Shown: positions 4,411-51,130 of the stretch, piece after piece
How positions within the stretch are numbered: the first letter of the stretch is position 1
How the letters are laid out: each line of letters starts with the position of its first letter
Assembly (NCBI GenBank): GCA_963774015.1
Contig: CAVZDH010000001.1
Span: 451,064-515,063, forward strand
DNA: 64,000 nt
Origin: an uncultured delta proteobacterium
GTDB taxonomy: Bacteria; Desulfobacterota; Binatia; UTPRO1
Direction: 5' to 3'
Translations under genes and position numbers: made by a program
Notes under the pieces: generated by a model
Database searches by the model: none
Told to the model about the DNA's origin: nothing
The model's input: only the letters and a program-made list of their open reading frames with translations

Positions 4411-5043
4411 ATGCTCGACGACGCGATGAAGGCGCAGTTGACGCAGTACCTCACGCACCTGCGACGACCGATCCGGATCACGGCCGCGCTCGACGACGGC
4501 CCCGACTCCACGGCGCTGCGCGAGCTCCTCCGGGACGTCGCCGCGGCGTCGAGCATGGTGGAGGTCGTCGACGACGACGGCACGCCGGACGACGGGGCCG
4601 GCATCCGCCGTCCCTCGTTCGCGATCCATCTGCCGGGCGAGGCGGCGCGCGTGCGCTTCGCCGGCGTGCCGCTCGGGCACGAGCTCACGTCGCTCGTGCT
4701 CGCGCTGCTGCACGTCGGCGGACACCCGCCGAAGGTCGGCGCCGAGGTGCTGGCGCAAGTGGACGGCCTCGGCGGGACCTATCATTTCGAGACGTACTTC
4801 TCGCAGTCCTGTCAGAACTGTCCCGACGTGGTGCAGGCCTTGAACCTGATGGCCGTCCGCAATCCGAACGTCACGCACGTCGCGATCGACGGCGCGACCT
4901 TCCAGGCCGAGGTCGACGACGCGTCAGGTGATGGCGCCGGCGAGATCATCGTCGACGACCACGGGCGCACGAACGTCCCGGGCGTCTTTGCGGCCGGCGA
5001 CGTGACCACCGTGCACGACGAGTCCGCCGTAGCCTCGCAACCG
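4411..5043 (+). pseudogene. ahpF: ahpF remnant: AhpF N-terminal thioredoxin-like domain joined to the last ~30 residues, FAD/NAD domain deleted
   Basis: N-terminus matches AhpF (MLDDAMKAQLTQYL...RFAGVPLGHELTSLVLALL...SQSCQNCPDVVQALNLMAV...HVAIDGATFQAEVDD) then jumps to the AhpF C-terminal block GEIIVDDHGRTNVPGVFAAGDVTTV; ~300 aa of reductase core absent and downstream frame is nonsense. Confidence 0.7.
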
Positions 5044-5128
5044 GTCTGCGACGTCGCATGTGCTCCCCGGATTGACTGCGTGTGGGCCCTCGGCGAGAAC
5101 TCTCGGCGACGCAACGCCGAGAGGAATC

Positions 5129-6851
5129 ATGGGACGCGACATACTGCTTCGGGTGCTTGCCGTGGCGATGGCCTTCGGCGTGATGGTCGCTGGCGAATCC
5201 AAGGCGATCGCCTCGCCGATCTCGCTGTTGATCCCGCAGTCGACGGCGTTCACGGTGCTCGGTCACTCGTGCGGGGGGATCCAGGAGCAGGCCTTCGCGA
5301 CCGGCTTCGATGTGATGAGCGGCGATCCGACCGGTGACGTCTATCTGCAGACGCGTTGCGGTGGCAGCGGCAGGGGCGGCGGGTACCACACCACGACGTA
5401 CTCCGCCTGGGTCGCGGTGACCTGGGACTTCACGGGGGCGCCGGTGTCGCATGCGGTCCTCCCGTCCCCCCCGGCGGACGTCGACCCGAGCTTTTCGGCG
5501 TTCGATGGGTCCGGGAACGAGCTGTACGACGTGCTCAACGCGGTGAACGTGGCGCCGGCGAGCTGCGCGGTCGGCAACACGACCTATTGCACCTATCGAG
5601 CGTATCTCGTCCTGGCCTCCGGGTTCGTCGCCGCGCCGCGAGTGACGAGCGTGTCGGTGACCTCCGGGCCGGCCGCCGGTGGCACGAGCGTCGCCATCGC
5701 CGGAACCGGATTCACCGGCGCGACGGCGGTGACCTTCGGCGACGTCCCCGCGGCGGGCTTCACCGTGAACGCCGACACCTCCATCACGGCGGTCTCGCCG
5801 GCCGCGAGCGCAGGTACCGTCGACGTCGCGGTCATGACGGACGGTGGCACGAGCGCGGCGAGCGCGAGCGATCGGTTCACCTTCGTTGCCGCGCCCACCG
5901 TGTCGGGGATCGATCCCGACGGCGGTCCGGTCGACGGCGGGACTCTGGTGGCGATCAGCGGCGCGAGCTTCATCGACGTGATCGCGGTCTACTTCGGGGA
6001 GACGCCGGCGGGGTTCACCGTGAACGACGACGGGTCGATCACCGCGGTCTCACCGCCGGCCGAGGCTCCCGACACGGTCGAGGTCAGGGTCGTGACGGTC
6101 GGCGGAACGAGCGCCGATTCGGCGGCCTTCGCGTACACGACCTCCGCCCCGGGCTCGGTCTGCGGCGACGCGATCGTCGATCCCGGGGAGCAATGCGACG
6201 ACGGCGCCGCCGACGGTACGCCCGGCGATTGCTGCACCGCTACATGCACGTTCCGGACGGCGGGCACGGCCTGCGTCGACGACGGCAGCCTCTGTACCTC
6301 GGACGTCTGCGAGGGCGGTGCGTGCACGCACGTCGGCCGCGCCGGCGCTCGCGTGCACGCCGCCGGACGTCGCGGGGGGCGCATCCTTGCTCGTGCGTCG
6401 GCTGCGGTCGGGTCGGAACCAGGTGCAGCTCCTGTGGGGCAAGGGACCGACCGTTCCGCTCACGGCTTTCGGCGATCCCAGCGCCGGTGCGACGTTCCAG
6501 CTCTGCGTCTACGACGAGACGGGCTCCGGCACGCCGGCGCTCGCCGTGACGGGCTCGCCCTCGGAGAGCGGCGGCGGGCACTGGACGCGGACACGCACGC
6601 AATGGAGGTTCCGCAGTGCAACCGGGGCGCCCGACGGCATCACCGCGGTGACGCTCACGGGTGCGACGGTCCCGCTGAAGGCGAAGGTCCAGGTGAAAGC
6701 GACGACCGGACCACTGCCGGTGCCGCTTCCCTGGCGGCACGATCCGAGCGTCGTCGCGCAGCTGAGGACGTCGTCCGGTGCATGCTGGGGCGCCACCTTC
6801 TCGGCTCCGACGGTCGACTCGGCGACCGAGCTCAAGACGAAGTCGGATTGA
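5129..6851 (+). CDS. Secreted IPT/TIG-repeat protein with myxo-type cysteine-rich repeat and conserved C-terminal domain (frameshift near 6320-6350)
   Basis: Signal peptide MGRDILLRVLAVAMAFGVMVAG; three IPT/TIG-like repeats (VTSVSVTSGPAAGGTSVAIAGTGFTGA...); Cys-rich CGDAIVDPGEQCDDGAADGTPGDCCTATC; C-terminal block continues in a second frame (ORF 6318-6851) and is homologous to the C-terminus of the 53759-59008 protein. Confidence 0.6.
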
Positions 6852-37178: not shown

Positions 37179-37406
37179 GGGCACCTCGACGTGCCGGTGT
37201 AACTCGGTCCGGCATAGCAAGCCAACCGACCACCGAGCACGGAGCTGGTGCTTTTCGCCACCCCCATTCGCCAAGCCCTGAGCTTCGGGAGCGATGCGGC
37301 TCGGGAATCATCCCCCGAGGCGGAAAGCTCCGTCCGCCCGGACGCGAGGGTCAGGCGGGATCGTACGAGCTCACGGACGCGTGATGCGCGCTCGCCCGCT
37401 TGCGTG

Positions 37407-38879
37407 CGTCAGGGGCAGCTCGGCGTGAGCGTGACGTCGGCGCTCGCGCGCGAGAGGTCGAGGGCGCCGGCGGCGGAGACGCCGACGCATCCCCCCGGGC
37501 CGGTGCGGAACTTGCCGCGCGCGGTCAGGCTCCCCGCCGGGGCGAGCGCCTCGATGGTGCCGTCGCTGCGCGCCTCGCAGGTGGCGTCGAGGCGTGAAGA
37601 GCCCGGCGCCGCTCTGCGCGAAGCGGATCTCGCCTGCGCCGACTCCGTGCGAGTCGACGTCGAAGCCCGACTTCGGCCCGACGGTGAGCCCGACGCCGTT
37701 CACCAAGATCACGCCCGCTGATCCCGTCTTGGTGGTCGCGACGGCCTTGACGCGGGCATTCACCGAACCGGCGGGTGCCGAGATGGTGACCGCGCCGCCC
37801 GCCGTCCGGCCGCCGGCCTTGAGGCCGACGCCGTCCAACGTGAGATCTCCGCTGGCCGCGTCGCCGAGCACCAGGATCTGTCCACCGTCGCCCTTGCCCG
37901 ACGACGCGTCGAGATCGTGATCGAGCGTCACGGCCGTCGACCCGAGCAACTGAATGAGGCCGCCGTTGCCGTGGTTGCCTTTGGCGGCGACGTTCGACTC
38001 GAACGCGACGGTGGCGGCGCTGACGTCGATGATGCCGCCGTCGATCTTGCCCCTGGCATCGACGCCGCGCGGTCCCACGGTGCCGAGCGGCGCTTGCACG
38101 ACGATCGTGCCGCCGCTCGTTCCCGCCGTGCTCACCTTGCCGTCGAGAACCACGTCGCCGCCGCTGCTCGCGAGCATCACGCTGCTGCCGGGCTCGCCCT
38201 TCTTCGCGTTGATCGATCCGTTCACGACGACGCCGGTCGCGCCGGCGATCGTGACGCTGCTTTGGCCCGGGCCGTCGACGCGGACGTCCTGATCGAGCGT
38301 CACCACGCCGCCGCTGCTGTCGATCTGCACCGAGCCGCTCTGCTCACCGCCGGCGAAGACGCGGCCTCCGATCGTCACGCCGAGGTCGCCGCTGAGCGCG
38401 ATGCTGCCGCCGTCCTCGACCTCGATGACCGCCGAGACTCCGGTCGTCAGCGTGCCGCCGGCGGCGACCGTCACGCTGCCGCCCGGCTTCGCTTTCAGGC
38501 GGTTCTTGACGTCGATGTCGCCGGTCGCGCTCACCGCGATGCTGCCCGTTCCGACGTCGATTTCGGTGTTCAGGTCGGCCGGCCCCGCGGCAGCCGTGAG
38601 CGTCACCGCCGCGCCCGGTCCTTCGATGCGACCGTGCACCTGGATCTCGCCGGCGGTGAGGTCGAGCGTACCCCCTGCCGGCACGGTGAGCGCGCCGCCG
38701 ATCACGAGCGTGCGGCCACCGAAGTCGACCACGCAGGGCGTCTGCACAGTGATGTTGCTGGTCTCGCAGGGGTCGCCCGTGCAGAGGTTGTTGGGGTCGG
38801 CGCACGAGACCTGCGCCGCCGCCCGCGTGGCGAGGGCCACGACGAAACACACCACGGCAATTGATCGAACCTGACGCAT
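37407..38879 (-). CDS. Secreted glycine-rich beta-solenoid repeat protein (frameshift near 37600)
   Basis: Signal peptide MRQVRSIAVVCFVVALATRAAAQ; Cys-rich N-terminal cap; long run of Gly/Thr/Val-rich solenoid repeats; a Cys-containing C-terminal block (ATCEARSDGTIEAL...GGCVGVSAAG...PSCP) continues in another frame to a stop at about 37407. Confidence 0.5.
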
Positions 38880-39035
38880 GCGACGCCTCCTGGGGCAGAG
38901 GGCCCGAAACGTGTCGGCAACCGGATGCCGTGGATGGATGATTCGGACCTACCGTCGACGGCGAGCGCGGGTCAAGAAAATTCCCGACCCGCGTCGAGGA
39001 AGCGCGCGCCATTTTGGCGCAGCCGTACGTGTCCC

Positions 39036-39302
39036 CTATGGCTGCTCATCGCCCCTTTCCCTCAAGGCCGCGACGATCCGCGCCACGGTCGGGGCATCGA
39101 AGTCGCGGCCGTAGGTGCGGTGGAAGAGCCGGATCCGCATTGCGGTCGATTGGTCCGTTCCGGCGGCATCGCCGAGCCCAGCGCGTATCAGGGCGCGCGC
39201 GGCATCGAACATGGCGCAGCCCATCCGCAAGCGTTCGGCCCCGCTTCGCTCCATGACGAGGCGCCGCTGCAGCTCGCGTATGGCCGGAGTGGTGTCGTTC
39301 AT
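39036..39302 (-). CDS. Small hypothetical protein (88 aa) translationally coupled to upstream nucleotidyltransferase-fold gene
   Basis: ATG overlaps stop of upstream gene (ATGA); contains an R-x4-H spacing (RIRLFH) that could be HEPN-like, unverified. Confidence 0.45.
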   Translation of the reverse strand: MNDTTPAIRELQRRLVMERSGAERLRMGCAMFDAARALIRAGLGDAAGTDQSTAMRIRLFHRTYGRDFDAPTVARIVAALRERGDEQP

Positions 39303-39848
39303 GGCCTGACCTCGGCAAGGAGGTCCCGGACGTCCAGCTCTGGGTCTACCGCCCACCGCGCGATGTAGCTCCAGTCGAGCGTCTCGACGCACGCGATGAG
39401 GTTGCGGACGTCCCGCAGCTGGATTTCCGAATGGCTGGGCTTCGCCCACGCGAGCTTCGAAAGGATGAGGTCCTCCGGCGCGACGAGGTCGACGGCCCGG
39501 CCCTCGACGGTGATGGTACGCCGGCGCGCGAACTCCGTTCGACGATACCTCGAGTCCTTGCGCACGATGCAATCGACCTTGATGACGGTCGGGGTGTGAA
39601 TCACGGTGAAGCTCCCGCGGTGCTCAACCCTGGCGGATCATGTCGCGGTCGCAATAGAAGTCGGGCGCGAAGGCGGCCGCGATCGTGTCGATGGTCGCCG
39701 GCCCGATCTCCACCACCAGGTCGATGTCACGCGTCATGCGCGGCTCGGCGTAGACGTTCATGGCCGTCGAGCCGCTCAGCATGTAGGCGATGCCCGCTCG
39801 GTTCAGTCGCTCGACGACGAGCAGCAGGAGATCCAACTCTTCGCTCAT
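39299..39848 (-). CDS. Nucleotidyltransferase-fold protein (pol-beta superfamily-like), apparently frameshifted near 39604-39626
   Basis: N-terminal ORF (39624-39848) has hG[GS]...DhDh-type motif LSGSTAMNVYAEPRMTRDIDLVV; C-terminal part (39299-39604) reads in a different frame. Confidence 0.45.
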
Positions 39849-39918: not shown

Positions 39919-42522
39919 CTAGGGCATCGTCACCGTCGACGGCACGCAGAAGTCGCGCGGGCCGAAGAAGTCGTAGGCGTCCGCCCCGAACTGGTTCAGC
40001 GTGAACAGCTCCGGACGGAAGGCCGCCGGCCGACCGTTCACCTTGTAACACATCAGGGCCGCGCCCGGATCGACGAGCGGGCCCTCGTCGTTCTTGATGG
40101 CCGGTAGGCAGAGGTGCAGCGGCTGCTTGACGTCGACCACGATCGTTCCGAACTGGTCGGTCACCACGAGCCCCGGCACCTTCGTCTTCGCGCCCGTGAC
40201 CTTGTAGCACTTGTAGTGATCGATCGGACGGGTGAGCGGTGACGCCGGGTCCGTCAGGCTCTTCGCCGTCGGCACCAGCATCCGATCCGGCTTCGCGAGC
40301 GACATCGTTCGCGAGCCGAACTGGTTGTCGACCGTCACGCCCTTCACCTTGGTGAAGCGCGAGGTCTGCTTGATCGTGTAGTAGGTGAAGTGCTCCGGAT
40401 CGAGCGGTGCAGTCGGGTCCTCCCCGTTCTTGTCCGCCGGCGCGCAGATCCGCTTGGGGCGTTTGATCGTGACGGTGCTCGGGCCGAGCGCGTCCGCGAG
40501 CGACACACCGGCGCGGTTCAAGGCCGGGCGGTGGATCTCGTAGCACTGGAAATGCCCGAGGCCGTCGAACCAGTTGCCGAAATCGTTGCCGGGATTCGCG
40601 CTGCCGCTCGCGAGCGTCTCCTCGTGGTAGCAACCGAAGGCGTCGGCGGTCAGCGGGAACGAGCACGTCCAGCCGGATTGCGGCACCTCGCGCACCTGCC
40701 ACGTCCCGGGGACGATACCAGTGATCACATAGGCGCCGGTCGCGTCGGTGACACCGAACGGCTCGTCGGGATCGAGCGCGCCGTTGCCGTCGTAGTCGAC
40801 ATAGATCGTCCAGCCGGCGAGACCGGGCTCGCCGGGATCCCGCCCGCCGTCGCGATCGACGTCGGAGAACTTGGTTCCCGACGTGGTCGCCTCGCGCCAG
40901 TTGCCGAAATCGTTGTCGCCGTACGCCGTCCCGGGGACGAACGTCTCCTCGTGATGGCAGCCGTATGCATCGGCGGTCGACGGGAACGAGCACGTCCATC
41001 CGGGCTGGCCGACCTCGCGCACCTTCCACGTTCCGGCCGCAATGTTCACGATCGCGTAGGCGCCGCTGGCGTCGGTCACGCCGAACGGCTCGCCGGGATC
41101 GAGCACGCCGTCGTCGTCGTAGTCGACGTAGATCGTCCACCCCGGAAGGCCCGGCTCGCCGGGCTCGCGAGGACTGCCGTCGGCGTCGAGGTCCTCGAAC
41201 TTGATGCCGGTCTTGCTGATACCGGTCCAGTTCGCGAAGTCGAAGCCCGTCTGGACCTCGCCGTCTCCGATGGTAAGCGCGTAGGAGCAGCTCGCGGGAA
41301 AGGAGCAGACGAAGCCCGGGTCGCCGAGCTCGCGGAGCGTCCACGTGCCCGGGGCGACGTCGTCGATCACGTACTGGCCGCTGGCGTCGCTCGTGCCGCT
41401 CGGCTCGCCGGGGTCGAGCACGCCGTCGTCGTCGTAGTCGACGTAGAAGGCCACGCCCGCGAGCCCGCTCTCGCCGGGATCGATCACGCCGTCGGCGTTC
41501 GCGTCGAGGTACTTCGTGCCGCGGAGCGAGGCCCCCGCCCGATAGGTGACGTTGATGTTCGTGTCGTTGCGGATGACGTCGGCCCAGACGCGGCCGAAGA
41601 TGTTGGTGCAGTCGCCGAGATTGATGCGGCCGTTCGGGATGAAGAACTGCCCGTGCACGGCGATCGTGTCGGAACAGCTCGGGTCGGTGTTGTACCCGAG
41701 CGTGAACGAGAACGTGGACGGACCGAGGCCGTCGGAGCGGATGTAGAAGCGTGCCAGATCGGATCCCTGGATGGTGAGGTCGTTGTTGCTGCGGAAGTCG
41801 ACGGCGATCCGGACGTCGGTGCCGGCCGTCGTGTTGATGGTCACGTTCCGGCCGATCTGGAGCGAGTGCAGGTCGTAGACGCCCGCACCGAGGTTCAGGA
41901 TGCCGCCGTCGTTGATGTCGACGTCGCCGTAGTCGCCCGGTGGCAGCGTCAACATGAACCCGGGAGGCAGGGTCACGTCGGCGAGCGCGTTCAGCGCGGC
42001 CTCCGAAGGGAAGCCCGGCAGGACCGGTTGGTACGGGCCGCCCGGATGCGTGAACGCGACGAAGCTCGGCAGCCCCGTATCGATGATGGGCGGCGTGAAA
42101 CAGATCGGCCCCGCGTTCCGCACGGAGGATGGCGTGAAGTCGTTGTTGTCGATGACGTTGGTGAAGAGGTCCCACACGCTCGTCGGCAACAGCGGATGCC
42201 CGGGTCCGAGCGTGATGCGGTCGGCGACGGCCGCGTAGCCGTCCGAGAGATGGACGCCGTAGTTCGTCCCGAGCGTGGCGTTCGGATCGCCGACCGTCGC
42301 GATGCCGTTCGATCCGAGATGGCCGCCGCTGAAGAGCCCGCGCCCGGGGATCGCGGCCGTCCCACCCTTCACGTAGAGATCCGTGTAGGCGAAGAGCATG
42401 TAGCCGTTGATGTCGCGCGGTGGCTCCGGCCCCGCGACGCACGGCGGTGGCGCGGCACTGGTACTCCCCGCTGCTCCGAGCAGCACGACTGCCGCAATCG
42501 TCACGGCACACCGGCGCCGCAT
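39919..42522 (-). CDS. Large secreted protein with three SdrD-B-like calcium-binding repeats and C-terminal Cys/Tyr/Lys-containing repeats
   Basis: Signal peptide MRRRCAVTIAAVVLLGAAGSTSA; three ~110-aa tandem repeats (GWTIYVDYDDDGVLDPGEPFGVTDASGAYAI...GTWKVREV...GWTCSFP); C-terminal HYKCYKV / LMCYKV modules. Confidence 0.7.
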   Translation of the reverse strand: MRRRCAVTIAAVVLLGAAGSTSAAPPPCVAGPEPPRDINGYMLFAYTDLYVKGGTAAIPGRGLFSGGHLGSNGIATVGDPNATLGTNYGVHLSDGYAAVADRITLGPGHPLLPTSVWDLFTNVIDNNDFTPSSVRNAGPICFTPPIIDTGLPSFVAFTHPGGPYQPVLPGFPSEAALNALADVTLPPGFMLTLPPGDYGDVDINDGGILNLGAGVYDLHSLQIGRNVTINTTAGTDVRIAVDFRSNNDLTIQGSDLARFYIRSDGLGPSTFSFTLGYNTDPSCSDTIAVHGQFFIPNGRINLGDCTNIFGRVWADVIRNDTNINVTYRAGASLRGTKYLDANADGVIDPGESGLAGVAFYVDYDDDGVLDPGEPSGTSDASGQYVIDDVAPGTWTLRELGDPGFVCSFPASCSYALTIGDGEVQTGFDFANWTGISKTGIKFEDLDADGSPREPGEPGLPGWTIYVDYDDDGVLDPGEPFGVTDASGAYAIVNIAAGTWKVREVGQPGWTCSFPSTADAYGCHHEETFVPGTAYGDNDFGNWREATTSGTKFSDVDRDGGRDPGEPGLAGWTIYVDYDGNGALDPDEPFGVTDATGAYVITGIVPGTWQVREVPQSGWTCSFPLTADAFGCYHEETLASGSANPGNDFGNWFDGLGHFQCYEIHRPALNRAGVSLADALGPSTVTIKRPKRICAPADKNGEDPTAPLDPEHFTYYTIKQTSRFTKVKGVTVDNQFGSRTMSLAKPDRMLVPTAKSLTDPASPLTRPIDHYKCYKVTGAKTKVPGLVVTDQFGTIVVDVKQPLHLCLPAIKNDEGPLVDPGAALMCYKVNGRPAAFRPELFTLNQFGADAYDFFGPRDFCVPSTVTMP

Positions 42523-43110
42523 CCCGATCGCCAGATGATGACGACTGGTGATTCGCATCGTCGACTCCAGTCGCGCGAGGTTTCGCGCCGCTACGAAGAC
42601 CGCATGCGGTCCGTTGAGGGGGCCCGGTGGATCGCTACACTCATTGCGCGATCAGCGGAGGTGTCAAAGGAATTCGTCCACCACACTCACGAAAACGTGA
42701 TCCATTTCGGCATACGGATACCCGAGGATCGTGTCGTCATGGCGACGATCCGTGACGAGCTCCAGCTGCATCGCGCATGCCAACGCGTGACGCTGCCATC
42801 GCCCAGGGATTGTGTCGCCGTGATGTCGCTGCCGTTCTCGAATCGGGAAATTCTCCGCCGCCTTTTCTCAGCGCATGGACGGCGCGCCGCGGCCGCGGCG
42901 GCGCGCGATCACGTGGCCTTGCTACGACGGGGCGAATTGGGGAGTGCGACGACCAGGGAGGTTCCGCGGCAGTGGCGGTGATTTCGGGAACCGCGACAGA
43001 GGCGAGCGGTAGGCAGCGACGCGTGGTTCTTGCAGGCCGCAGTGCTGGCAGGCGGACGCCGCCCGCCATTGCGGCGAGCGGCGTCCCGTCCGTCCGAACG
43101 ACTACTTCTT

Positions 43111-45533
<2,423 letters not shown>

Positions 45534-45757
45534 GCGGGTGCCTCCTCCAAAAACTCGAGGCGGGAAGGGAGGACAGCCCGACCAGCCTCTAAGGTTTCGA
45601 GTGGTTGGCCGCCCGGACGAGAAGGCAAGGACGCCGTGACGTCTGCTTCCCGCGAGCGCTTCTGCGCACTCCCGACGAACTTGCCGGCCGCCCGAGGACG
45701 GGCCGGCATGAAAACCGGCGTTGTCTAGCATCGGACGGGGGGAATTGCGAGAGCGCG

Positions 45758-45779: not shown

Positions 45780-46377
45780 GTCTCATTCTGGGAGGGTGGA
45801 ACCCCTCACCTTCAGGTGACGCCTTCAGGAGGCTTGCGGTACGGTGGGCGGCATGCGGACCTACCGGCGCGCGTCGCACAGTGTGTATGAGCTGCACTAC
45901 CATTTCGTGTTCACCACGAAGTACCGCAAGCCGGCGTTGACGGGCGATGTGGCCCTCGAAGTGCGCGGGATGGTGCGACAGATTTGTCGGGCGAACGACA
46001 TTGAGATTCTGGCGGGGCACGTACGTCCCGATCACGTGCACCTGTTGTTGAGCGTGCCGCCGCATCTGGCTCCGAGTCGGGTGATGCAAGCGATCAAAGG
46101 GAAGACCTCGCACCGGCTGCTCATGGACCACCGGAAGTTGAGGGCGGCGTTCTGGGGCCGGCATCTGTGGAGCCGGGGGTACTTCGTGTGCAGCAGCGGC
46201 AATGTGACTGATGAGATGATCGCGGAGTACATCCGGACGCAAGATGCCGAGCCCCAGGACGACGACCGGTTCAAGGTGAGTGAGTGACATGGTCATGAGC
46301 TTGCAGCGCACGGCGAGGGTCTTCAGGCGCCTTTAGGCGCCCGCGAACCCGCCGCCTTTAGGCGGCGGAGGGCTCAG
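45780..46377 (+). mobile_element. IS200/IS605-family insertion sequence (tnpA only), inserted within the left inverted repeat of the IS1-family element
   Basis: Encodes Y1 HUH transposase; subterminal hairpins (left: TCACC-TTCA-GGTGA about 45806-45820; right: GGCGCC-TTTA-GGCGCC 46326-46341 and GCCGCC-TTTA-GGCGGC 46351-46366); boundaries +/- 5 bp. Confidence 0.7.
45853..46287 (+). CDS. tnpA: IS200/IS605-family transposase TnpA (Y1 HUH)
   Basis: HUH motif in YELHYHFVFTTKYRKP, conserved DHVHLLLSVPP and catalytic Tyr region (RGYFVCSSGNVTDEMIAEYI). Confidence 0.9.
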   Translation: MRTYRRASHSVYELHYHFVFTTKYRKPALTGDVALEVRGMVRQICRANDIEILAGHVRPDHVHLLLSVPPHLAPSRVMQAIKGKTSHRLLMDHRKLRAAFWGRHLWSRGYFVCSSGNVTDEMIAEYIRTQDAEPQDDDRFKVSE

Positions 46378-47128: not shown

Positions 47129-47896
47129 CTAGGCTGCGTTCTCGTAGAGCAACGCGTCCGTGATGTCCGCCAGCGGCCGGCAGTAGTCCTCGGCGAGCGC
47201 CTCGATCGATTCACCGGCGCGTTTTCGTTCAGCCACGATTCGGGTACGGATATCGGTTCCGGCGATCACGGGTCGCCCATAGGCGTAGCGTGGGTGAATC
47301 AGGATGCGTCGGGCACTCGGAGCGGGGCCATCGATCTGGGCTTCTGTAGCGAAGGGAAACACGCCGATAGCGCCTGCCGGGTCGAATTGAATGCGTTCCA
47401 AGTAGCGGATTAGGACGTCACGCATGCCAACCTGGGCAACCGATGGGCTATCGGAGATATTCAACACAACCGCATCTTCGAGCGAATCCAGAAACAGACT
47501 GTACCCGTCCGTCAGCATCCGCGACGTTGCTAACGGATGTTCGGATTTGAATTCCCTGCGCAGATGCACTATTGCGTTGCGTACTTTCGGTAGCTTGATC
47601 CCGTAACGACGCCGTACCGAATCGAGTACAAAAACTTCCACGAGATTCGTAAACGACAGCAAACCGCGTTCGCGGTCAGCTATCTTGATCAGCGGATGCC
47701 ACGTCCGGTGACCGTCAGATACCGGATAGTCTCGACCGTACACCCAGGTGCGAACGGTGCTCGCCGGAACCTTCAAGTAGCTCGCGGCGCTAGCGACTGG
47801 GTAGTTCGGGACATGTCGCGGATCGACATCGCGGTAGCTCAGTATCGTGTCCGCTTTTGGCATCTTGACGTACCTGCACCAAGCATACACGGGCAC
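47129..47896 (-). CDS. HTH plus DUF433 domain protein (putative antitoxin/regulator)
   Basis: C-terminal DUF433 signature RILIHPRYAYGRPVIAGTDIRTRIVAERKRAGESIEALAEDYCRPLADITDALLYE; N-terminal HTH-like segment (AASYLKVPASTVRTWVYGRDYP); central region unassigned. Confidence 0.65.
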   Translation of the reverse strand: MPVYAWCRYVKMPKADTILSYRDVDPRHVPNYPVASAASYLKVPASTVRTWVYGRDYPVSDGHRTWHPLIKIADRERGLLSFTNLVEVFVLDSVRRRYGIKLPKVRNAIVHLRREFKSEHPLATSRMLTDGYSLFLDSLEDAVVLNISDSPSVAQVGMRDVLIRYLERIQFDPAGAIGVFPFATEAQIDGPAPSARRILIHPRYAYGRPVIAGTDIRTRIVAERKRAGESIEALAEDYCRPLADITDALLYENAA

Positions 47897-48060
47897 GGCA
47901 GTTCAAGGGAGAGCCGTTTGCATTCGCTAAGTTAGCGGACTGCCGAGAACATCAAGGGGCTGGTCGTTCTCCGGTCGTGCGTCGAGACGGTAGATTACCG
48001 GGCGACAATCAGGTGAAACTTTTGCTTGACACTCAAGTATTATTGTCATATCATTGCGGC

Positions 48061-48969
48061 ATGAACAAGTTGCCGGTTGCCACGCGGGTCCAGATCCTCT
48101 CGATGCTCTGCGAAGGCTCCTCGATGCGCTCGATCAGCCGGGTCGCTGACGTCTCGATCAACACCGTCGCCCGCTACCTCGTGATCGCCGGCAAAGCGTG
48201 CAGCGCGTTCCACGACGTCACCGTTCGCAACGTCGCTGCGAAGCGCGTGCAGTGCGACGAAATCTGGTCGTTCGTCGGGATGAAGGAGAAGGCCGCGAAG
48301 GCGAAGGCGTCGAAGGACGAGCGACCCGCGAACGTCGGCGACGTGTGGACGTGGACAGCGATCGACGCCGACTCGAAGCTGATCGTGTCGTGGCTCCTCG
48401 GCGGTCGCGATGCAGGGTGCGCGTGGGAGTTCATGACCGACGTCGCGTCGCGGCTTGCGAACCGCGTGCAGCTCACGACCGACGCGCACAAGGCGTATCT
48501 CACGGTCGTGCCCGAGGCATTCGGCTTCAACGTCGACTACGCGCAGATCGTCAAGGTCTACGGCGCCGATCCGAAGGAGGATCAGCGCCGCTACTCCCCG
48601 GCGCAGTGCCTCGGCGCCGAGAAGCTGCACATTCACGGCTACCCGAAAGACGAACACATCTCGACGTCGTATATCGAGCGCAGCAACTTAACGCTCAGAA
48701 TGGCGAACCGCCGCTTCACGCGGTTGACCAATGCGTTCTCGAAGAAGCTGGAGAACCACGCGCACATGGTCGCGCTCTACACGTGCTGGTACAACTTCGT
48801 GAAGATGCACAAGACGATTGGCTGCACCCCCGCGATGGCGGCCGGCGTGATCGACACGCTCTGGTCGATGACCGATCTCGTGGCGCTCGTCGACAAGTAC
48901 GACGACGCGCAGCCGCGCAAGAAGGCGGGGCGTAAGCCGAAGGCGACCGATCCGGGTTCTCAGTCATGA
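48061..48969 (+). CDS. IS1-family transposase (fused InsA-like HTH and InsB-like DDE domain)
   Basis: InsB-like blocks VQCDEIWSFVGMKEK, WTWTAIDADSKLIVSW, LTTDAHKAYL, IERSNLTLRMANRRFTRLTNAFSKKLENHAHMVALYTCWYNFVKMH match E. coli IS1 InsB pattern (VQSDELWTFVG...IERHNLNLRQ...); N-terminal HTH VATRVQILSMLCEGSSMRSISRVADVSINTVARYL. Confidence 0.85.
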   Translation: MNKLPVATRVQILSMLCEGSSMRSISRVADVSINTVARYLVIAGKACSAFHDVTVRNVAAKRVQCDEIWSFVGMKEKAAKAKASKDERPANVGDVWTWTAIDADSKLIVSWLLGGRDAGCAWEFMTDVASRLANRVQLTTDAHKAYLTVVPEAFGFNVDYAQIVKVYGADPKEDQRRYSPAQCLGAEKLHIHGYPKDEHISTSYIERSNLTLRMANRRFTRLTNAFSKKLENHAHMVALYTCWYNFVKMHKTIGCTPAMAAGVIDTLWSMTDLVALVDKYDDAQPRKKAGRKPKATDPGSQS

Positions 48970-49162: not shown

Positions 49163-51085
49163 TGCGCCGGTCAAAACCGGCAAGGTGTTGTGGATGAAAG
49201 AGCCACACGATGAAGGAGTAGCGACCCACATCGGCCCCGAGTCATGCGTCGCTGTCCGTGAGGGCAGAGGCGAAGCGTTGACAGGGGTACGTGCAGGCCA
49301 GCCATGGAGCCGCGAAAATCAATTATAGCCTCGGGTGCCGACGCTCTTAGTGTAAGCGGAAGGCAACATCGCAGTGCGTCGATATCGCGAGAGGCGGCGG
49401 ACCCGGCGCGGTCGAAGACCCTGCGCATGCACGGAAACACTTTGCACGGGAACCGGGAGATCCCGCCACCGTCTGGGAGCCGGAGTGGCCCAGACCGCAT
49501 CGGGAAGTCGAGAGACGCAATCCGATGACGCACGGTGACGGGAAGTCGGACACCGCCGTAGTACCGAGAGAAGCTGCCGAACAAAGCTGCGGAACCAGCG
49601 GCGGAGGCGGTGGAGGGAAGGGCGGTGGCCAAGGGGAAGACGCTCGAGCGTAACACGCTCCGGACGCAGAGCCGGGAAGGTGTGCCCAGCGCGCTCGAGC
49701 GGATACGAGAGGCCGCAAGGCAACAGAAGCAGCTGCGTTTCACCGCGCTCCTGCACCACGTCTACGACGTCGAACGGCTGCGGCGGGCCTACTACGCACT
49801 GAAGCGAGAGGCGGCGGCGGGAATCGACGGGGAGACGTGGAAGCACTACGGCGAGCAGTTGGGAGAAAATCTGCAAGACCTGTCCCAGCGGCTCAAACGG
49901 GGAGCGTACCGAGCCAAGCCTGTACGGCGGGCGTACATCGAGAAGGCGGACGGGCGGCAGAGGCCGCTCGGCGTTCCCGTGCTGGAGGACAAGATCGTCC
50001 AGCGCGCCGTCGTCGAGGTGCTCAACGCCATTTACGAACAGGACTTTGCGAGGTTCTCGTATGGATTCCGCCCGGGGCGCGGACCGCATGATGCCCTGAA
50101 CGCGCTGACGGTGGCGATCCAGACCAGAAAGGTGAGCTGGGTGCTCGACGCGGACATCAGAAGCTTCTTCGACACGCTGGAACACAGCTGGTTGGTGAAG
50201 TTCGTCGAGCATCGGGTGGCAGACCGGCGCATCGTGCGCCTCATCCAGAAGTGGTTGAGGGCCGGGGTGCTGGAAGAAGGTCGGCGGACACGTAGCGAGG
50301 TAGGGACGGTACAGGGCGGAAGCATCAGCCCGCTGCTGGCCAATATCTACCTGCACTACGTGTTCGATCTGTGGACCCAGCGATGGAGAAAGAAGCAGGC
50401 GCGCGGACAGGTCATCGTCGTGCGCTACGCCGACGACTTCGTCCTTGGGTTCGAGCATCGCCACGAGGCCGAGCAGTTCCTCGTGGATCTCAAGCAGCGG
50501 TTTTCCCAGTTTGGCTTGGAGCTGCACCCGGAGAAGACCAGACTGATCGAGTTCGGGCGGTTCGCCGCCAGCAATCGCGATCGGCGAGGACAGGGAAAGC
50601 CCGAGACCTTCGACTTCCTTGGCTTCACGCACAGCTGCGGGAAGACGCGGAAGACGGGGAGCTTTGTGGTGCTGCGGCGAACGATGCGCAAGCGGATGGC
50701 GGCGAAGCTGCAGGAAGTGAAAGCCGAACTGCGACGACGTCGGCACACGACCCTTGGCGAGCAGGCGGAGTATCTGCGAGCGGTGGTGCAAGGGCACATG
50801 CGGTACTATGGCGTGCCCCGCAACTTTCCAGCGCTCAACGCGTTCCGCTGGGCGCTCGGCCGACTGTGGTGGCGGTCGTTAGGCCGCCGCAGTCAACGCG
50901 GCCGCATCCCCTGGCAGCGCATGACGCGTATCCTACGTCTGGCACTGCCGCGTGTTCGCATCTGTCATCCCTATCCGTCCTTGGACGCATCTCGTCAGAA
51001 CCTGAGGCAGGAGCCGGATGCGGTAATGCCGCACGTCCGGATCTGTGCGGGGGGCGCCGAGCGATCGGCGTCCCTACCGCGACCC
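49163..51085 (+). mobile_element. Bacterial group II intron (ribozyme plus intron-encoded protein)
   Basis: 5' end GTGCGCC at 49163 (consensus GUGYG); RT/maturase ORF; domain V-like hairpin at 51011-51043; GNRA-capped hairpin at 51050-51073; 3' end near 51083-51085 (CGAC/CC), boundary +/- 3 nt. Confidence 0.8.
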
Positions 51086-51130
51086 GCCGCGTGGGAGGCC
51101 CTCATGGCCGCTGCCGGGGCGGAGAGATAA
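49610..51130 (+). CDS. Group II intron-encoded reverse transcriptase/maturase
   Basis: RT domains 0-7 (RPLGVPVLEDKIVQRAVVEVLNAIYEQDFARFSYGFRPGRGPHDAL; DADIRSFFDTLEH; YADDFVLGF) and maturase X domain; no HNH endonuclease domain seen; computed ORF runs through domain V, so true C-terminus is uncertain. Confidence 0.9.
   Translation: MEGRAVAKGKTLERNTLRTQSREGVPSALERIREAARQQKQLRFTALLHHVYDVERLRRAYYALKREAAAGIDGETWKHYGEQLGENLQDLSQRLKRGAYRAKPVRRAYIEKADGRQRPLGVPVLEDKIVQRAVVEVLNAIYEQDFARFSYGFRPGRGPHDALNALTVAIQTRKVSWVLDADIRSFFDTLEHSWLVKFVEHRVADRRIVRLIQKWLRAGVLEEGRRTRSEVGTVQGGSISPLLANIYLHYVFDLWTQRWRKKQARGQVIVVRYADDFVLGFEHRHEAEQFLVDLKQRFSQFGLELHPEKTRLIEFGRFAASNRDRRGQGKPETFDFLGFTHSCGKTRKTGSFVVLRRTMRKRMAAKLQEVKAELRRRRHTTLGEQAEYLRAVVQGHMRYYGVPRNFPALNAFRWALGRLWWRSLGRRSQRGRIPWQRMTRILRLALPRVRICHPYPSLDASRQNLRQEPDAVMPHVRICAGGAERSASLPRPAAWEALMAAAGAER
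51011..51043 (+). ncRNA. Group II intron catalytic domain V
   Basis: GAGCCGGAUGCGG-UAAU-GCCGCACGUCCGGAUC closely matches the domain V consensus GAGCCGUAUGCGAU-GAAA-GUCGCACGUACGGUUC, including the AGC triad. Confidence 0.6.
51086..51095. repeat. Right copy of 10-bp flanking direct repeat GCCGCGTGGG
   Basis: Identical to 45758-45767; lies just 3' of the group II intron. Confidence 0.55.

What the first reader, a model, noticed from the sequence alone, without database searches (positions are those of the whole stretch)
39036..39848. Translationally coupled nucleotidyltransferase-fold gene plus small R-x4-H protein: possible MNT/HEPN-like toxin-antitoxin pair, with the first gene frameshifted
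A pol-beta-type nucleotidyltransferase motif (GSTAMNVYAEPRMTRDIDLVV) protein is followed by an 88-aa ORF whose ATG overlaps the upstream stop (ATGA). The small protein has an R-x4-H spacing (RIRLFH). Two-gene nucleotidyltransferase/HEPN modules are known TA or abortive-infection systems, but here the order and sizes are atypical and the nucleotidyltransferase gene shows a frame switch near 39604-39626, so it may be inactivated.
Basis: inference. Interest (0 to 1): 0.45.

Follow-up and report, generated by a model that had tools for sequence, protein, structure and literature searches.

The report
Decayed MenT1/MenA1-like toxin–antitoxin pair
This is a two-gene toxin–antitoxin module related to the MenT1/MenA1 system of the tuberculosis bacterium, in reversed gene order and with the toxin gene broken by a 2-base deletion; it is not an MNT/HEPN pair and is biologically fairly ordinary.

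Summary
On the minus strand, a nucleotidyltransferase (NTase) gene is split into 74-aa and 101-aa pieces. An 88-aa gene follows, and its ATG overlaps the upstream stop (ATGA). Against more than 100 homologues, nearly all 181 aa, the split is a 2-nt deletion in the codon of near-invariant Ala74.

The HEPN/MNT reading fails:
- The His of "RIRLFH" is not conserved.
- No HEPN or NTP_transf_2 profile matches.
- The confident four-helix model has no HEPN-like fold match.

The NTase instead resembles the M. tuberculosis tRNA-modifying toxin MenT1:
- Foldseek TM-score 0.70–0.76.
- hhalign probability 93%.
- The four MenT1 catalytic residues align to invariant T39, D41, K132 and D147.

The small protein belongs at the edge of Pfam Rv0078B, the MenA1 antitoxin family.

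The pairing is conserved: 79 of 79 testable NTase loci from many phyla carry the small gene immediately downstream. Only 43 of 60 loci found through the small gene keep an intact NTase. That asymmetry fits NTase as toxin and small protein as antitoxin.

The gene order is opposite to MenAT1. The clade is large and I found no paper describing it. I could not tell whether the deletion is real or an assembly error. Interest is modest.

The parts
39630..39848 (-). NTase toxin gene, N-terminal part (M1..Q73). It holds the pol-beta motifs G26-S27 and T39-R-D41-I-D43. The reading frame then runs into TGA at 39626..39624.
   Evidence: ORF list and translation. Alignment to 18 and 86 homologues. T39 and D41 align to MenT1 T39 and D41.
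39628..39629 (-). Site of the 2-nt deletion inside the Ala74 codon (G|--|). It shifts the frame. The exact position is ambiguous within 39627..39630.
   Evidence: DNA alignment with L001 and L005: CAG--GGT versus CAGGCGGT. Ala is found at this position in 111 of 112 homologues.
39299..39628 (-). NTase toxin gene, C-terminal part (V75..P183 plus stop) in the shifted frame. It holds invariant K132 and D147, the unusual N82T, and a unique 2-aa insertion (D169-P170).
   Evidence: An annotation of the source genome called a 101-aa GTG-started fragment of this part (P0077).
39036..39302 (-). Intact 88-aa gene for a small four-helix protein, the putative MenA1-like antitoxin. Its ATG overlaps the NTase stop (ATGA).
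   Evidence: Pfam Rv0078B similarity. Family HMM against MenA1. The same gene is found immediately downstream of the NTase in 79 of 79 testable loci.
39310..39313 (-). Shine-Dalgarno-like GAGG, 7 nt upstream of the small gene's ATG and inside the end of the NTase gene.
   Evidence: Read directly from the sequence. Its function is inferred.
38966..38998 (-). Terminator-like GC-rich hairpin followed by a T-rich tail, about 40 nt after the small gene's stop. It is the likely end of the operon.
   Evidence: Consensus scan and inverted-repeat search. This is a pattern match only.

Best explanation
The locus is a two-gene toxin-antitoxin module of the MenAT1 type (M. tuberculosis Rv0078B/Rv0078A).

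The first gene encodes a compact 181-aa pol-beta-superfamily NTase whose closest solved relative is the toxin MenT1. By analogy, the intact enzyme would add nucleotides to the 3'-CCA ends of tRNAs, block aminoacylation and stop translation.

The second gene is translationally coupled to the first. It encodes a small helical protein related to the antitoxin MenA1. By analogy, it would bind over the NTase active-site face, sequester the enzyme, and possibly trigger inhibitory auto-phosphorylation of Thr39.

Gene order here is toxin then antitoxin, the opposite of MenAT1.

In this genome the toxin gene is interrupted after codon 73 by a 2-nt deletion. The only in-frame product is a 74-aa stub that has the metal-binding motif but lacks the essential Lys132 and Asp147. 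The antitoxin gene is intact. The locus is therefore most likely a disarmed module, a toxin pseudogene with a surviving antitoxin.

Shown here: the anatomy, the homology, the fold, the conserved residues, the co-occurrence and the decay asymmetry. Inferred: the tRNA target, the binding mode, Thr39 phosphorylation, and that the deletion is biological.
For: NTase identity
- The model of the close homologue P0002 has pLDDT 95.
- Its best PDB matches are MenT1 entries 8an5, 8an4 and 8rr5: E 2e-9, TM 0.70-0.76, full length.
- hhalign of the 86-sequence family against MenT1 gives probability 92.7% and E 4e-7 over residues 6-157.
- MenT1 T39, D41, K137 and D152 are required for toxicity or activity (PMC10435456). 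They align to family-invariant T39, D41, K132 and D147.

Small protein
- Pfam Rv0078B is the only family hit repeatedly: 16 of 20 members, and 45 of 128. The best E-value, 2.5e-8, is by my estimate above the curated cut-off.
- A family HMM scores real MenA1 at E 8.5e-6 as a single target. The match covers the alpha1 helix, which alone suffices for antitoxicity.

Coupling and co-occurrence
- The small gene lies immediately downstream on the same strand in 79 of 79 testable genome loci from many phyla.
- The two genes overlap by 4 or 8 nt in 68 of those 79.
- The flanking genes differ between relatives, as expected for a mobile module.

Role assignment
- An intact NTase always has the small gene (79/79). 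An intact small gene has an intact NTase in only 43 of 60 loci.
- Fisher p is 1.4e-7, or 4e-4 after collapsing obvious shared lineages.
- The other loci show independent NTase deletions, frameshifts and a stop codon beside an intact small gene (L079, L103, L105/L113, L108, L131, L165).

Decay in the window
- Besides the deletion, the window copy has N82T, where Asn is found in 112 of 112 homologues.
- It also has a 2-aa insertion seen in none of the 112.
- A heavily frameshifted H+-PPase pseudogene lies 3 kb away.
Against: - Neither protein reaches a Pfam gathering score. The reconstructed NTase scores 21.6 against 22.5 for AbiEii, and the window's small protein scores 16.1 against 27.1 for Rv0078B.
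- Direct profile comparisons with MenA1 are weak: hhalign probability 2-17%, P 0.0014-0.019. Profile and single-sequence searches of PDB did not retrieve the MenA1 chain.
- The predicted antitoxin is a compact four-helix domain, not MenA1's two-helix V. It carries extra conserved residues (L59, R62, Y64) that MenA1 lacks.
- Gene order is reversed relative to MenAT1 (PMC10435456).
- No toxicity, tRNA modification or protein interaction was tested. A complex could not be modelled.
- dN/dS of the window NTase against relatives (0.11-0.15) is no higher than between intact copies (0.11-0.21). The deletion is therefore very recent or an assembly error, and reads were not available.
Confidence: 0.75

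Rival explanations
1. The identity is the same (a MenAT1-like module), but the 2-nt deletion is a sequencing or assembly error. The module would then be intact and functional in the organism.
For: - It is a single small indel in a GC-rich GGCGG context.
- dN/dS of the NTase is as low as in intact copies.
- All four catalytic residues are preserved.
- The source is one 1.47-Mb contig with no independent copy found.
Against: - The copy also has N82T at a position invariant in 112 of 112 homologues, plus a unique 2-aa insertion.
- Other long ORFs in the window (1868, 922, 910, 724 and 720 aa) are uninterrupted, so indel errors are not common here.
- Decayed NTase genes beside intact small genes recur in unrelated assemblies.
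- A true multi-frameshift pseudogene lies nearby.
Confidence: 0.4
2. One reading: an MNT/HEPN-type pair. The NTase would be the antitoxin that nucleotidylates a small HEPN RNase toxin carrying an R-x4-H active site.
For: - It is a two-gene NTase-plus-small-protein operon.
- The window protein contains R56-x4-H61.
Against: - H61 is E, L, Q or D in homologues, and R56 also varies.
- There are no HEPN or NTP_transf_2 Pfam hits.
- The NTase is closest to the toxin MenT1.
- In decayed loci it is the NTase that is lost and the small gene that is kept. That is the wrong way round if the small protein were the toxin.
Confidence: 0.03
3. The NTase is a small-molecule nucleotidyltransferase, for example for antibiotic resistance like LnuA or ANT(2'')-Ia. 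The small protein would be an accessory or regulatory factor, and the pair would not be a toxin-antitoxin system.
For: - Foldseek hits to LnuA, ANT(2'')-Ia and TM1012 at E 1e-5 to 1e-4.
- A weak Pfam Aminoglyc_resit hit at E 0.07.
Against: - MenT1 matches are 3-4 orders of magnitude better and cover the full length.
- The Thr39 phospho-acceptor and the K/D pair typical of DUF1814 toxins are invariant.
- The overlapping small partner is obligatory and resembles MenA1.
- The one-sided decay pattern has no rationale for a resistance enzyme.
Confidence: 0.05
4. The split is functional. Either a programmed +1 frameshift at GGT-TGA gives ...DMIRQG-EHRGSF..., or the two fragments reassemble into an active or regulated toxin.
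For: - A stop codon in the A site next to the shift site resembles the prfB layout.
- A GGAG lies 7 nt before the GTG at 39604.
Against: - None of the homologues examined has the split at this site. Nearly all of the 120 listed are single 181-aa ORFs, and 79 of the 80 genome loci carry one full-length ORF.
- The shifted product would lack near-invariant Ala74.
- GGU to GUU re-pairing is poor.
- The GGAG...GTG is dictated by the conserved coding sequence GSF(N/T)VIH.
Confidence: 0.02

Closest known systems
MenAT1 (MenA1/Rv0078B - MenT1/Rv0078A) of Mycobacterium tuberculosis; PDB 8an4, 8an5, 8rr5; PMC10435456, PMC11375011
   Same: - A compact bi-lobed NTase of similar size (181 versus 197 aa) and fold, TM 0.70-0.76.
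- The catalytic set T39, D41, K and D is conserved.
- A small non-DNA-binding helical partner lies at the edge of the same Pfam family, and its N-terminal helix region aligns to MenA1 alpha1.
- The two genes overlap by 4 nt in both systems.
   Different: - Gene order is reversed: here NTase then small gene, in M. tuberculosis menA1 then menT1.
- The NTases are only 18-20% identical.
- The partner is longer (about 83-90 versus 68 aa). It is predicted as four helices with an extra conserved L59/R62/Y64 motif.
- Both proteins fall below the Pfam gathering scores.
- The clade is far larger and taxonomically broader than the 21 menA1 homologues reported in the paper.
- The window's toxin is frameshifted.
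AbiE (AbiEi/AbiEii) and MenAT3/MenAT4: DUF1814 NTase toxins with wHTH-kinase-like antitoxins (type IV/VII TA, abortive infection)
   Same: The same NTase superfamily with the same four-motif logic. There are weak AbiEii profile hits in Pfam (2e-4) and PADLOC (5e-3).
   Different: - AbiEii, MenT3 and MenT4 are much larger.
- Their antitoxins are COG5340/AbiEi-type wHTH proteins encoded upstream, unrelated to the small helical protein here.
- No phage-defence context was seen in the window.
HEPN-MNT toxin-antitoxin modules (minimal NTase antitoxin plus R-x4-6-H HEPN RNase toxin)
   Same: A two-gene operon that pairs a pol-beta-fold NTase with a smaller alpha-helical protein.
   Different: - There is no HEPN fold and no conserved R-x4-H.
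- There is no NTP_transf_2 signature.
- The roles are inverted: here the NTase is the likely toxin.
Stand-alone small NTases TM1012, JHP933, LnuA, ANT(2'')-Ia and Paracoccidioides 5uvd
   Same: They share the minimal NTase fold. Foldseek E-values are 4e-7 to 1e-4, and the PDB profile hit to 5uvd is 1.4e-5.
   Different: These are not known to be paired with a MenA1-like partner. The matches are weaker than to MenT1, and the substrates are small molecules or unknown.

Membership tests
MenT / DUF1814 (AbiEii-type) NTase toxins | N-terminal pol-beta motifs I and II (h-G-[GS] ... [ST]-x-D-x-D) | tested here: met
   G26-S27 and T39-R-D41-I-D43 are present in the window. G26, S27, T39 and D41 are invariant and D43 is nearly invariant (>=90%) in 86 homologues. 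They align to MenT1 G27-F28 and T39/D41/D43.
MenT / DUF1814 (AbiEii-type) NTase toxins | C-terminal motif III Lys and motif IV Asp (MenT1 K137, D152) | tested here: met
   hhalign places invariant K132 (LSKL) on K137 and invariant D147 (QLxDVRN) on D152. Both are present in the window's C-terminal fragment.
MenT / DUF1814 (AbiEii-type) NTase toxins | Passes the Pfam PF08843 (AbiEii) gathering score | tested here: not met
   The reconstructed protein scores 21.6 bits against a cut-off of 22.5. DUF6036 and DUF2204 are also sub-threshold. Homologues carry a mixture of weak PF08843, PF14907, PF19502 and PF09970 hits. NCBIfam gave no hit.
MenT / DUF1814 (AbiEii-type) NTase toxins | Bi-lobed MenT fold | tested here: met
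   The model of the 81%-identical homologue P0002 has MenT1 chains as its top five of six PDB hits: E 2e-9 to 5e-7, TM 0.70-0.76, about 190 aligned columns. The window's own reconstructed sequence could not be submitted.
MenT / DUF1814 (AbiEii-type) NTase toxins | Growth inhibition through nucleotide addition to tRNA 3' ends | not testable with these tools
   Needs expression and tRNA-sequencing experiments.
MenA1 / Rv0078B-related antitoxin (Pfam PF18993) | Sequence match to the family profile | tested here: inconclusive
   The window protein scores E 0.011 and 16.1 bits against a cut-off of 27.1. Of its family, 16 of 20 members match at E<=0.1 and 45 of 128 at E<=0.01. The best is 2.5e-8, which by my estimate is above the cut-off, and no competing family appears. 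A family HMM against MenA1 itself gives E 8.5e-6 as a single target, but hhalign probability is only 2-17%.
MenA1 / Rv0078B-related antitoxin (Pfam PF18993) | Encoded next to, and overlapping, a MenT-like NTase gene | tested here: met
   79 of 79 testable genome loci. The overlap is 4 or 8 nt in 68 of those 79. The window has an ATGA overlap.
MenA1 / Rv0078B-related antitoxin (Pfam PF18993) | Located upstream of the toxin gene, as in M. tuberculosis and 15 of the 21 reported homologues | tested here: not met
   The gene is downstream of the NTase gene in every locus examined. The M. tuberculosis order was confirmed in L096 and in PMC10435456.
MenA1 / Rv0078B-related antitoxin (Pfam PF18993) | Long alpha1 helix plus short alpha2 in a V shape; binds two toxin protomers asymmetrically | tested here: inconclusive
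   The monomer model has four helices (6-17, 21-42, 53-63, 70-86). Helix 21-42 is the part that aligns to MenA1 alpha1. The complex could not be modelled.
HEPN toxins (of HEPN-MNT modules) | Conserved R-x4-6-H catalytic motif | tested here: not met
   H61 is unique to the window protein, with E, L, Q or D elsewhere, and R56 is variable.
HEPN toxins (of HEPN-MNT modules) | HEPN fold or profile match | tested here: not met
MNT minimal NTase antitoxins (Pfam NTP_transf_2, PF01909) | Profile match to NTP_transf_2 | tested here: not met
   NTP_transf_2 is not among the hits even at E<=10.

The most novel reading that the evidence does not exclude
The pair would represent a very large, uncharacterised, reversed-order sister clade of MenAT1.

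- Size: more than 6,000 NTase clusters at 90% identity, and about 1,640 small-protein clusters at 50% identity.
- Range: Nitrospirota, Binatia, Acidobacteriota, Verrucomicrobiota, Desulfobacterota, Planctomycetota and others.
- Antitoxin: a folded four-helix domain with an extra conserved L59/R62/Y64 motif.

Such an antitoxin could neutralise the NTase differently from MenA1's asymmetric two-protomer clamp, for example as a 1:1 cap, with or without Thr39 auto-phosphorylation. Its frequent survival as an orphan could reflect a second role, such as anti-addiction or cross-neutralisation.
Probability: 0.3. Interest if true: 0.45.

Novelty: new variant of a known kind. Interest (0 to 1): 0.3.

Why it matters
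MenT-type NTase toxins have so far been studied mainly in M. tuberculosis and Streptococcus. This locus points to an abundant environmental clade of minimal MenT1-like toxins. Their MenA1-related partner is encoded after the toxin, not before it.

That widens the known range of the MenAT1 architecture. It also offers many compact toxin-antitoxin pairs for asking two questions: is antitoxin-induced Thr auto-phosphorylation general, and which tRNAs are targeted?

For annotating this genome, the practical result is simpler. The locus should be labelled a MenT1-like toxin pseudogene (or possible assembly error) plus a MenA1-like antitoxin, not MNT/HEPN.

The recurrent one-sided decay, with the toxin lost and the antitoxin kept, is a clean comparative signature. 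It could be used to assign roles in other uncharacterised two-gene modules.

Tried and rejected
- NCBIfam gave nothing for either protein. PADLOC gave only a weak AbiEii hit.
- Profile and single-sequence searches of PDB with the small protein did not find MenA1. I therefore recovered MenA1 and MenT1 from an M. tuberculosis contig and compared them directly.
A close homologue was used instead.
- Looking up the source contig failed. The exact small protein is not in the gene-position index, and its cluster has no names or accessions.
- A search of metagenome contigs for either allele of the frameshift site found nothing, so the deletion could not be confirmed independently.
The closer alignment A4 was used.
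- dN/dS showed no relaxation of constraint in the window's NTase. It therefore does not help decide between a recent mutation and an error.
- No sigma-70-like promoter was found upstream.
- A literature search for PF18993, DUF6036 and PF19502 returned no papers.
- Programmed frameshifting and a functional split toxin were considered and judged unlikely, because the split is not conserved and near-invariant Ala74 is lost.

Full report
**1. What is in the sequence**

The feature lies on the minus strand of a 68.7% GC window.
- ORF 39624..39848 (74 aa) reads MSEELDLL...GSTAMNVYAEPRMTRDIDLVVEIG...FYCDRDMIRQG*.
- ORF 39299..39604 (101 aa from a GTG) is in another frame and continues with ...VEHRGSFTVIHTPTVIKVDCIVRK...LSKLAWAKPSHSEIQLRDVRNL....
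- ORF 39036..39302 (88 aa) starts with an ATG that overlaps the preceding TGA (ATGA). A GAGG lies 7 nt upstream.
- A terminator-like hairpin with a T-rich tail follows about 40 nt after its stop.
- Both NTase pieces have coding-type composition, with GC3 of 0.88.

**2. The frameshift**

- A reconstructed protein joining the two pieces found more than 6,000 homologues, and nearly all of the 120 listed are exactly 181 aa.
- It aligns end to end with them. The junction falls on ...DRDMIRQ-A-VEH.GSF....
- At the DNA level the window reads CAG--GGT where two close relatives read CAGGCGGT. Two bases of the Ala74 codon are missing, between positions 39629 and 39628.
- Ala is found at this position in 111 of 112 homologues.
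- The only in-frame product is therefore a 74-aa stub.

The same copy has two further peculiarities:
- N82T, at a position where Asn is found in 112 of 112 homologues.
- A two-residue insertion (D169-P170) seen in none of the 112.

Against real decay, dN/dS against four relatives (0.11-0.15) is the same as between intact copies (0.11-0.21). If the lesion is real, it is recent.

I could not find reads or an independent assembly:
- The exact small protein is not in the gene-position index.
- Its cluster has no accession.
- A metagenome scan for either allele found nothing.

Indirect evidence leans towards a real lesion:
- Other long ORFs in the window (up to 1868 aa) are unbroken.
- An H+-pyrophosphatase gene 3 kb away is a genuine multi-frameshift pseudogene.

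I put about 0.55-0.6 on a real mutation and about 0.4 on an assembly error.

**3. What the NTase is**

- Pfam gives only sub-threshold hits: AbiEii 2e-4, DUF6036 2e-3, DUF2204 3e-3. There is no NTP_transf_2 hit.
- NCBIfam gives nothing. PADLOC gives a weak AbiEii hit.
- A family profile hits two solved structures: a fungal NTase-like protein (5uvd, 1.4e-5) and MenT1/Rv0078A (8an4, 3.8e-5).
- The AlphaFold model of P0002, which is 81% identical to the window protein, has pLDDT 95.
- Its best PDB matches are MenT1 chains: E 2e-9, TM 0.70-0.76, about 190 aligned columns. They rank ahead of TM1012, LnuA, ANT(2'')-Ia and the CCA-adding enzymes.

I recovered the MenT1 sequence from an M. tuberculosis contig. 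hhalign of the 86-sequence family against it gives probability 92.7% and E 4e-7.

In that alignment the four MenT1 residues shown experimentally to matter are T39, D41, K137 and D152 (PMC10435456; PMC11375011). They fall on family-invariant T39, D41, K132 and D147. All four are still encoded in the window's two fragments.

**4. What the small protein is**

- It has 26 close homologues in the word-indexed search.
- An exhaustive profile search finds 1,642 clusters at 50% identity.
- The R-x4-H is not a motif. H61 is E, L, Q or D elsewhere, and R56 varies. The conserved positions are R24, M27, M31, F32, D33, A35, L59, R62 and Y64.
- The model is confident (pLDDT 91) and has four helices.

The only profile family that recurs is Pfam PF18993, "Rv0078B-related antitoxin" (MenA1):
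- Window protein: E 0.011, below threshold.
- 16 of 20 family members match at E<=0.1.
- 45 of 128 match at E<=0.01. The best is 2.5e-8, and no other family is hit more than once.

Comparison with the real MenA1 sequence:
- A 137-sequence family HMM scores 12 bits, E 8.5e-6 for a single target.
- The match runs over family residues 21-58 and MenA1 residues 6-43. This is the alpha1 helix that alone neutralises MenT1.
- hhalign gives the same register but low probability, P 0.0014-0.019.

I read this as distant but real relatedness of the N-terminal helix. The C-terminal half has no counterpart in MenA1.

**5. Co-occurrence and role assignment**

- In close relatives an intact 181-aa NTase gene overlaps an 83-aa gene by 4 nt. 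The flanking genes are completely different in each case.
- In distant relatives (Nitrospira, Binatia, Vicinamibacterales) the downstream gene is again this family. Some copies carry a precomputed Rv0078B Pfam hit.
- I fetched 80 genome loci through the NTase. All 79 with enough downstream sequence encode the small protein immediately downstream on the same strand, at HMM E 1e-15 to 1e-38.
- The overlap is 4 nt in 47 of them and 8 nt in 21.

I also fetched 80 metagenome loci through the small protein. Sixty have at least 540 nt of upstream sequence:

| Upstream NTase | Loci |
|---|---|
| Intact | 43 |
| Remnants only (N-terminal truncation, the same in-frame internal deletion in two samples, a frameshift, short C-terminal stubs) | 6 |
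| None | 11 (9 appear to be one soil lineage) |

Further lesions are seen in loci cut by a contig end: a frameshift in L131 and an in-frame stop in L165. A Binatia MAG (L079) has lost the catalytic N-terminus of the NTase while keeping the small gene.

So an intact NTase always has the small gene, but an intact small gene often lacks the NTase. Fisher p is 1.4e-7, or 4e-4 after collapsing obvious shared lineages. The loci are still not fully independent.

This is the pattern expected if the NTase is the toxin and the small protein its antitoxin. It is the opposite of the MNT/HEPN role assignment.

**6. Mechanism**

By homology with MenAT1, the intact NTase would add nucleotides to tRNA 3'-CCA ends and arrest translation. 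MenT1 prefers CTP. The small protein's helix 21-42 would lie across the active-site face, sequester the enzyme, and possibly induce inhibitory auto-phosphorylation of invariant Thr39 (PMC10435456; PMC11375011).

These steps are inferred. Only the fold, the residues, the coupling and the co-occurrence are shown here.

In the window, ribosomes terminate at TGA 39626..39624, about 320 nt before the small gene. Coupling is therefore lost, and any expression of the antitoxin would depend on its own Shine-Dalgarno sequence.

**7. Comparison with what is known, and novelty**

The closest system is MenAT1. Differences:
- Reversed gene order. It was confirmed directly in M. tuberculosis locus L096, where menA1 at 657-863 overlaps menT1 starting at 860. 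The paper reports the same, with 15 of 21 menA1 homologues upstream of a menT-like gene.
- A longer, four-helix partner with an extra conserved motif.
- Only 18-20% identity between the NTases.
- Sub-threshold Pfam scores for both proteins.
- A far larger and broader distribution.

A literature search for the relevant Pfam names found nothing. I found no description of this reversed-order clade in the MenT papers I read.

I rate it a new variant of a known kind. The window's copy is a disarmed, or mis-assembled, example.

**8. Verdict**

| Item | Result |
|---|---|
| Observation | Confirmed |
| Best explanation | MenAT1-like toxin-antitoxin module with inactivated toxin, confidence 0.75 |
| Interest | 0.3 |

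Noticed in passing
window 42737-45731 (-): An H+-translocating pyrophosphatase gene is broken into at least four colinear pieces in different ORFs and frames. They match Pfam H_PPase positions 3-98, 115-231, 371-420 and 556-644. This is a heavily frameshifted pseudogene or a locally poor stretch of assembly.
   Followed up: partly
window 45820-46287 (+), 47869-48969 (+), 49562-51130 (+): A cluster of mobile-element genes lies next to the PPase pseudogene and about 6 kb from the toxin-antitoxin pair: an IS200-type Y1 transposase, an IS1-like DDE transposase with an HTH, and a group II-intron-type reverse transcriptase.
   Followed up: partly
window 39919-42558 (-) and 37371-38879 (-): The pair is flanked by two large genes. 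One encodes an 879-aa protein with SdrD-B-like/prealbumin-fold repeats and two DUF7450 repeats. The other encodes a 502-aa Gly/Val/Thr-rich protein with no Pfam hit. Both N-termini look like signal peptides (my reading, not tested). Neither gene is found next to the pair in relatives.
   Followed up: partly
L079:900-1900 (Candidatus Binatia MAG JBDSJB010000377.1): This is an independent case of toxin decay. The NTase gene starts MSEE, then lacks roughly residues 5-48, including the catalytic motif, and changes frame. The downstream small gene is intact.
   Followed up: yes
L105:1405-1608 and L113:1798-1998: Two metagenome samples share the same in-frame internal deletion of the NTase. Profile positions 1-43 are joined to 154-180, leaving a mini-ORF of about 70 aa upstream of an intact small gene.
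   Followed up: partly
L126, L127, L141, L150, L153 and similar soil contigs (e.g. L126:306-850): In one soil lineage the small gene has no NTase at all. It is preceded by a conserved 91-aa ORF without a Pfam hit that ends exactly at its start codon. It is followed by a large adenylate/guanylate-cyclase plus AAA/STAND ATPase protein. This could be an orphan antitoxin or a new partnership.
   Followed up: partly
L175:2001-2937: Another orphan small gene sits directly upstream of a Phd/YefM-ParE toxin-antitoxin pair and next to a ChrB-like gene. This looks like clustering of toxin-antitoxin genes.
   Followed up: partly
L009:375-1061 (-) and 4613-6648 (+): In a Nitrospira-like contig the NTase/small pair lies beside CRISPR-associated genes (Cas_GSU0053, Cas_GSU0054). 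A second, divergent NTase homologue is encoded on the opposite strand.
   Followed up: no
L010:1479-1951: In a Binatia MAG a HicA-family toxin pair (DUF7387 plus HicA_toxin) lies about 1 kb upstream of the NTase/small pair.
   Followed up: no
L096 (M. tuberculosis assembly FQOG01000001.1): The menA1-menT1 region of this assembly contains a run of unknown bases inside one menT1 copy. It also has repeated TetR_C and menT1 fragments, which is probably an assembly artefact. The full 197-aa menT1 and 68-aa menA1 could still be read.
   Followed up: partly
protein P0194: A 131-aa predicted protein carries precomputed hits to both AbiEii (PF08843) and Rv0078B (PF18993). It could be a fusion or a gene call running across a menA1-menT1 junction.
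   Followed up: no
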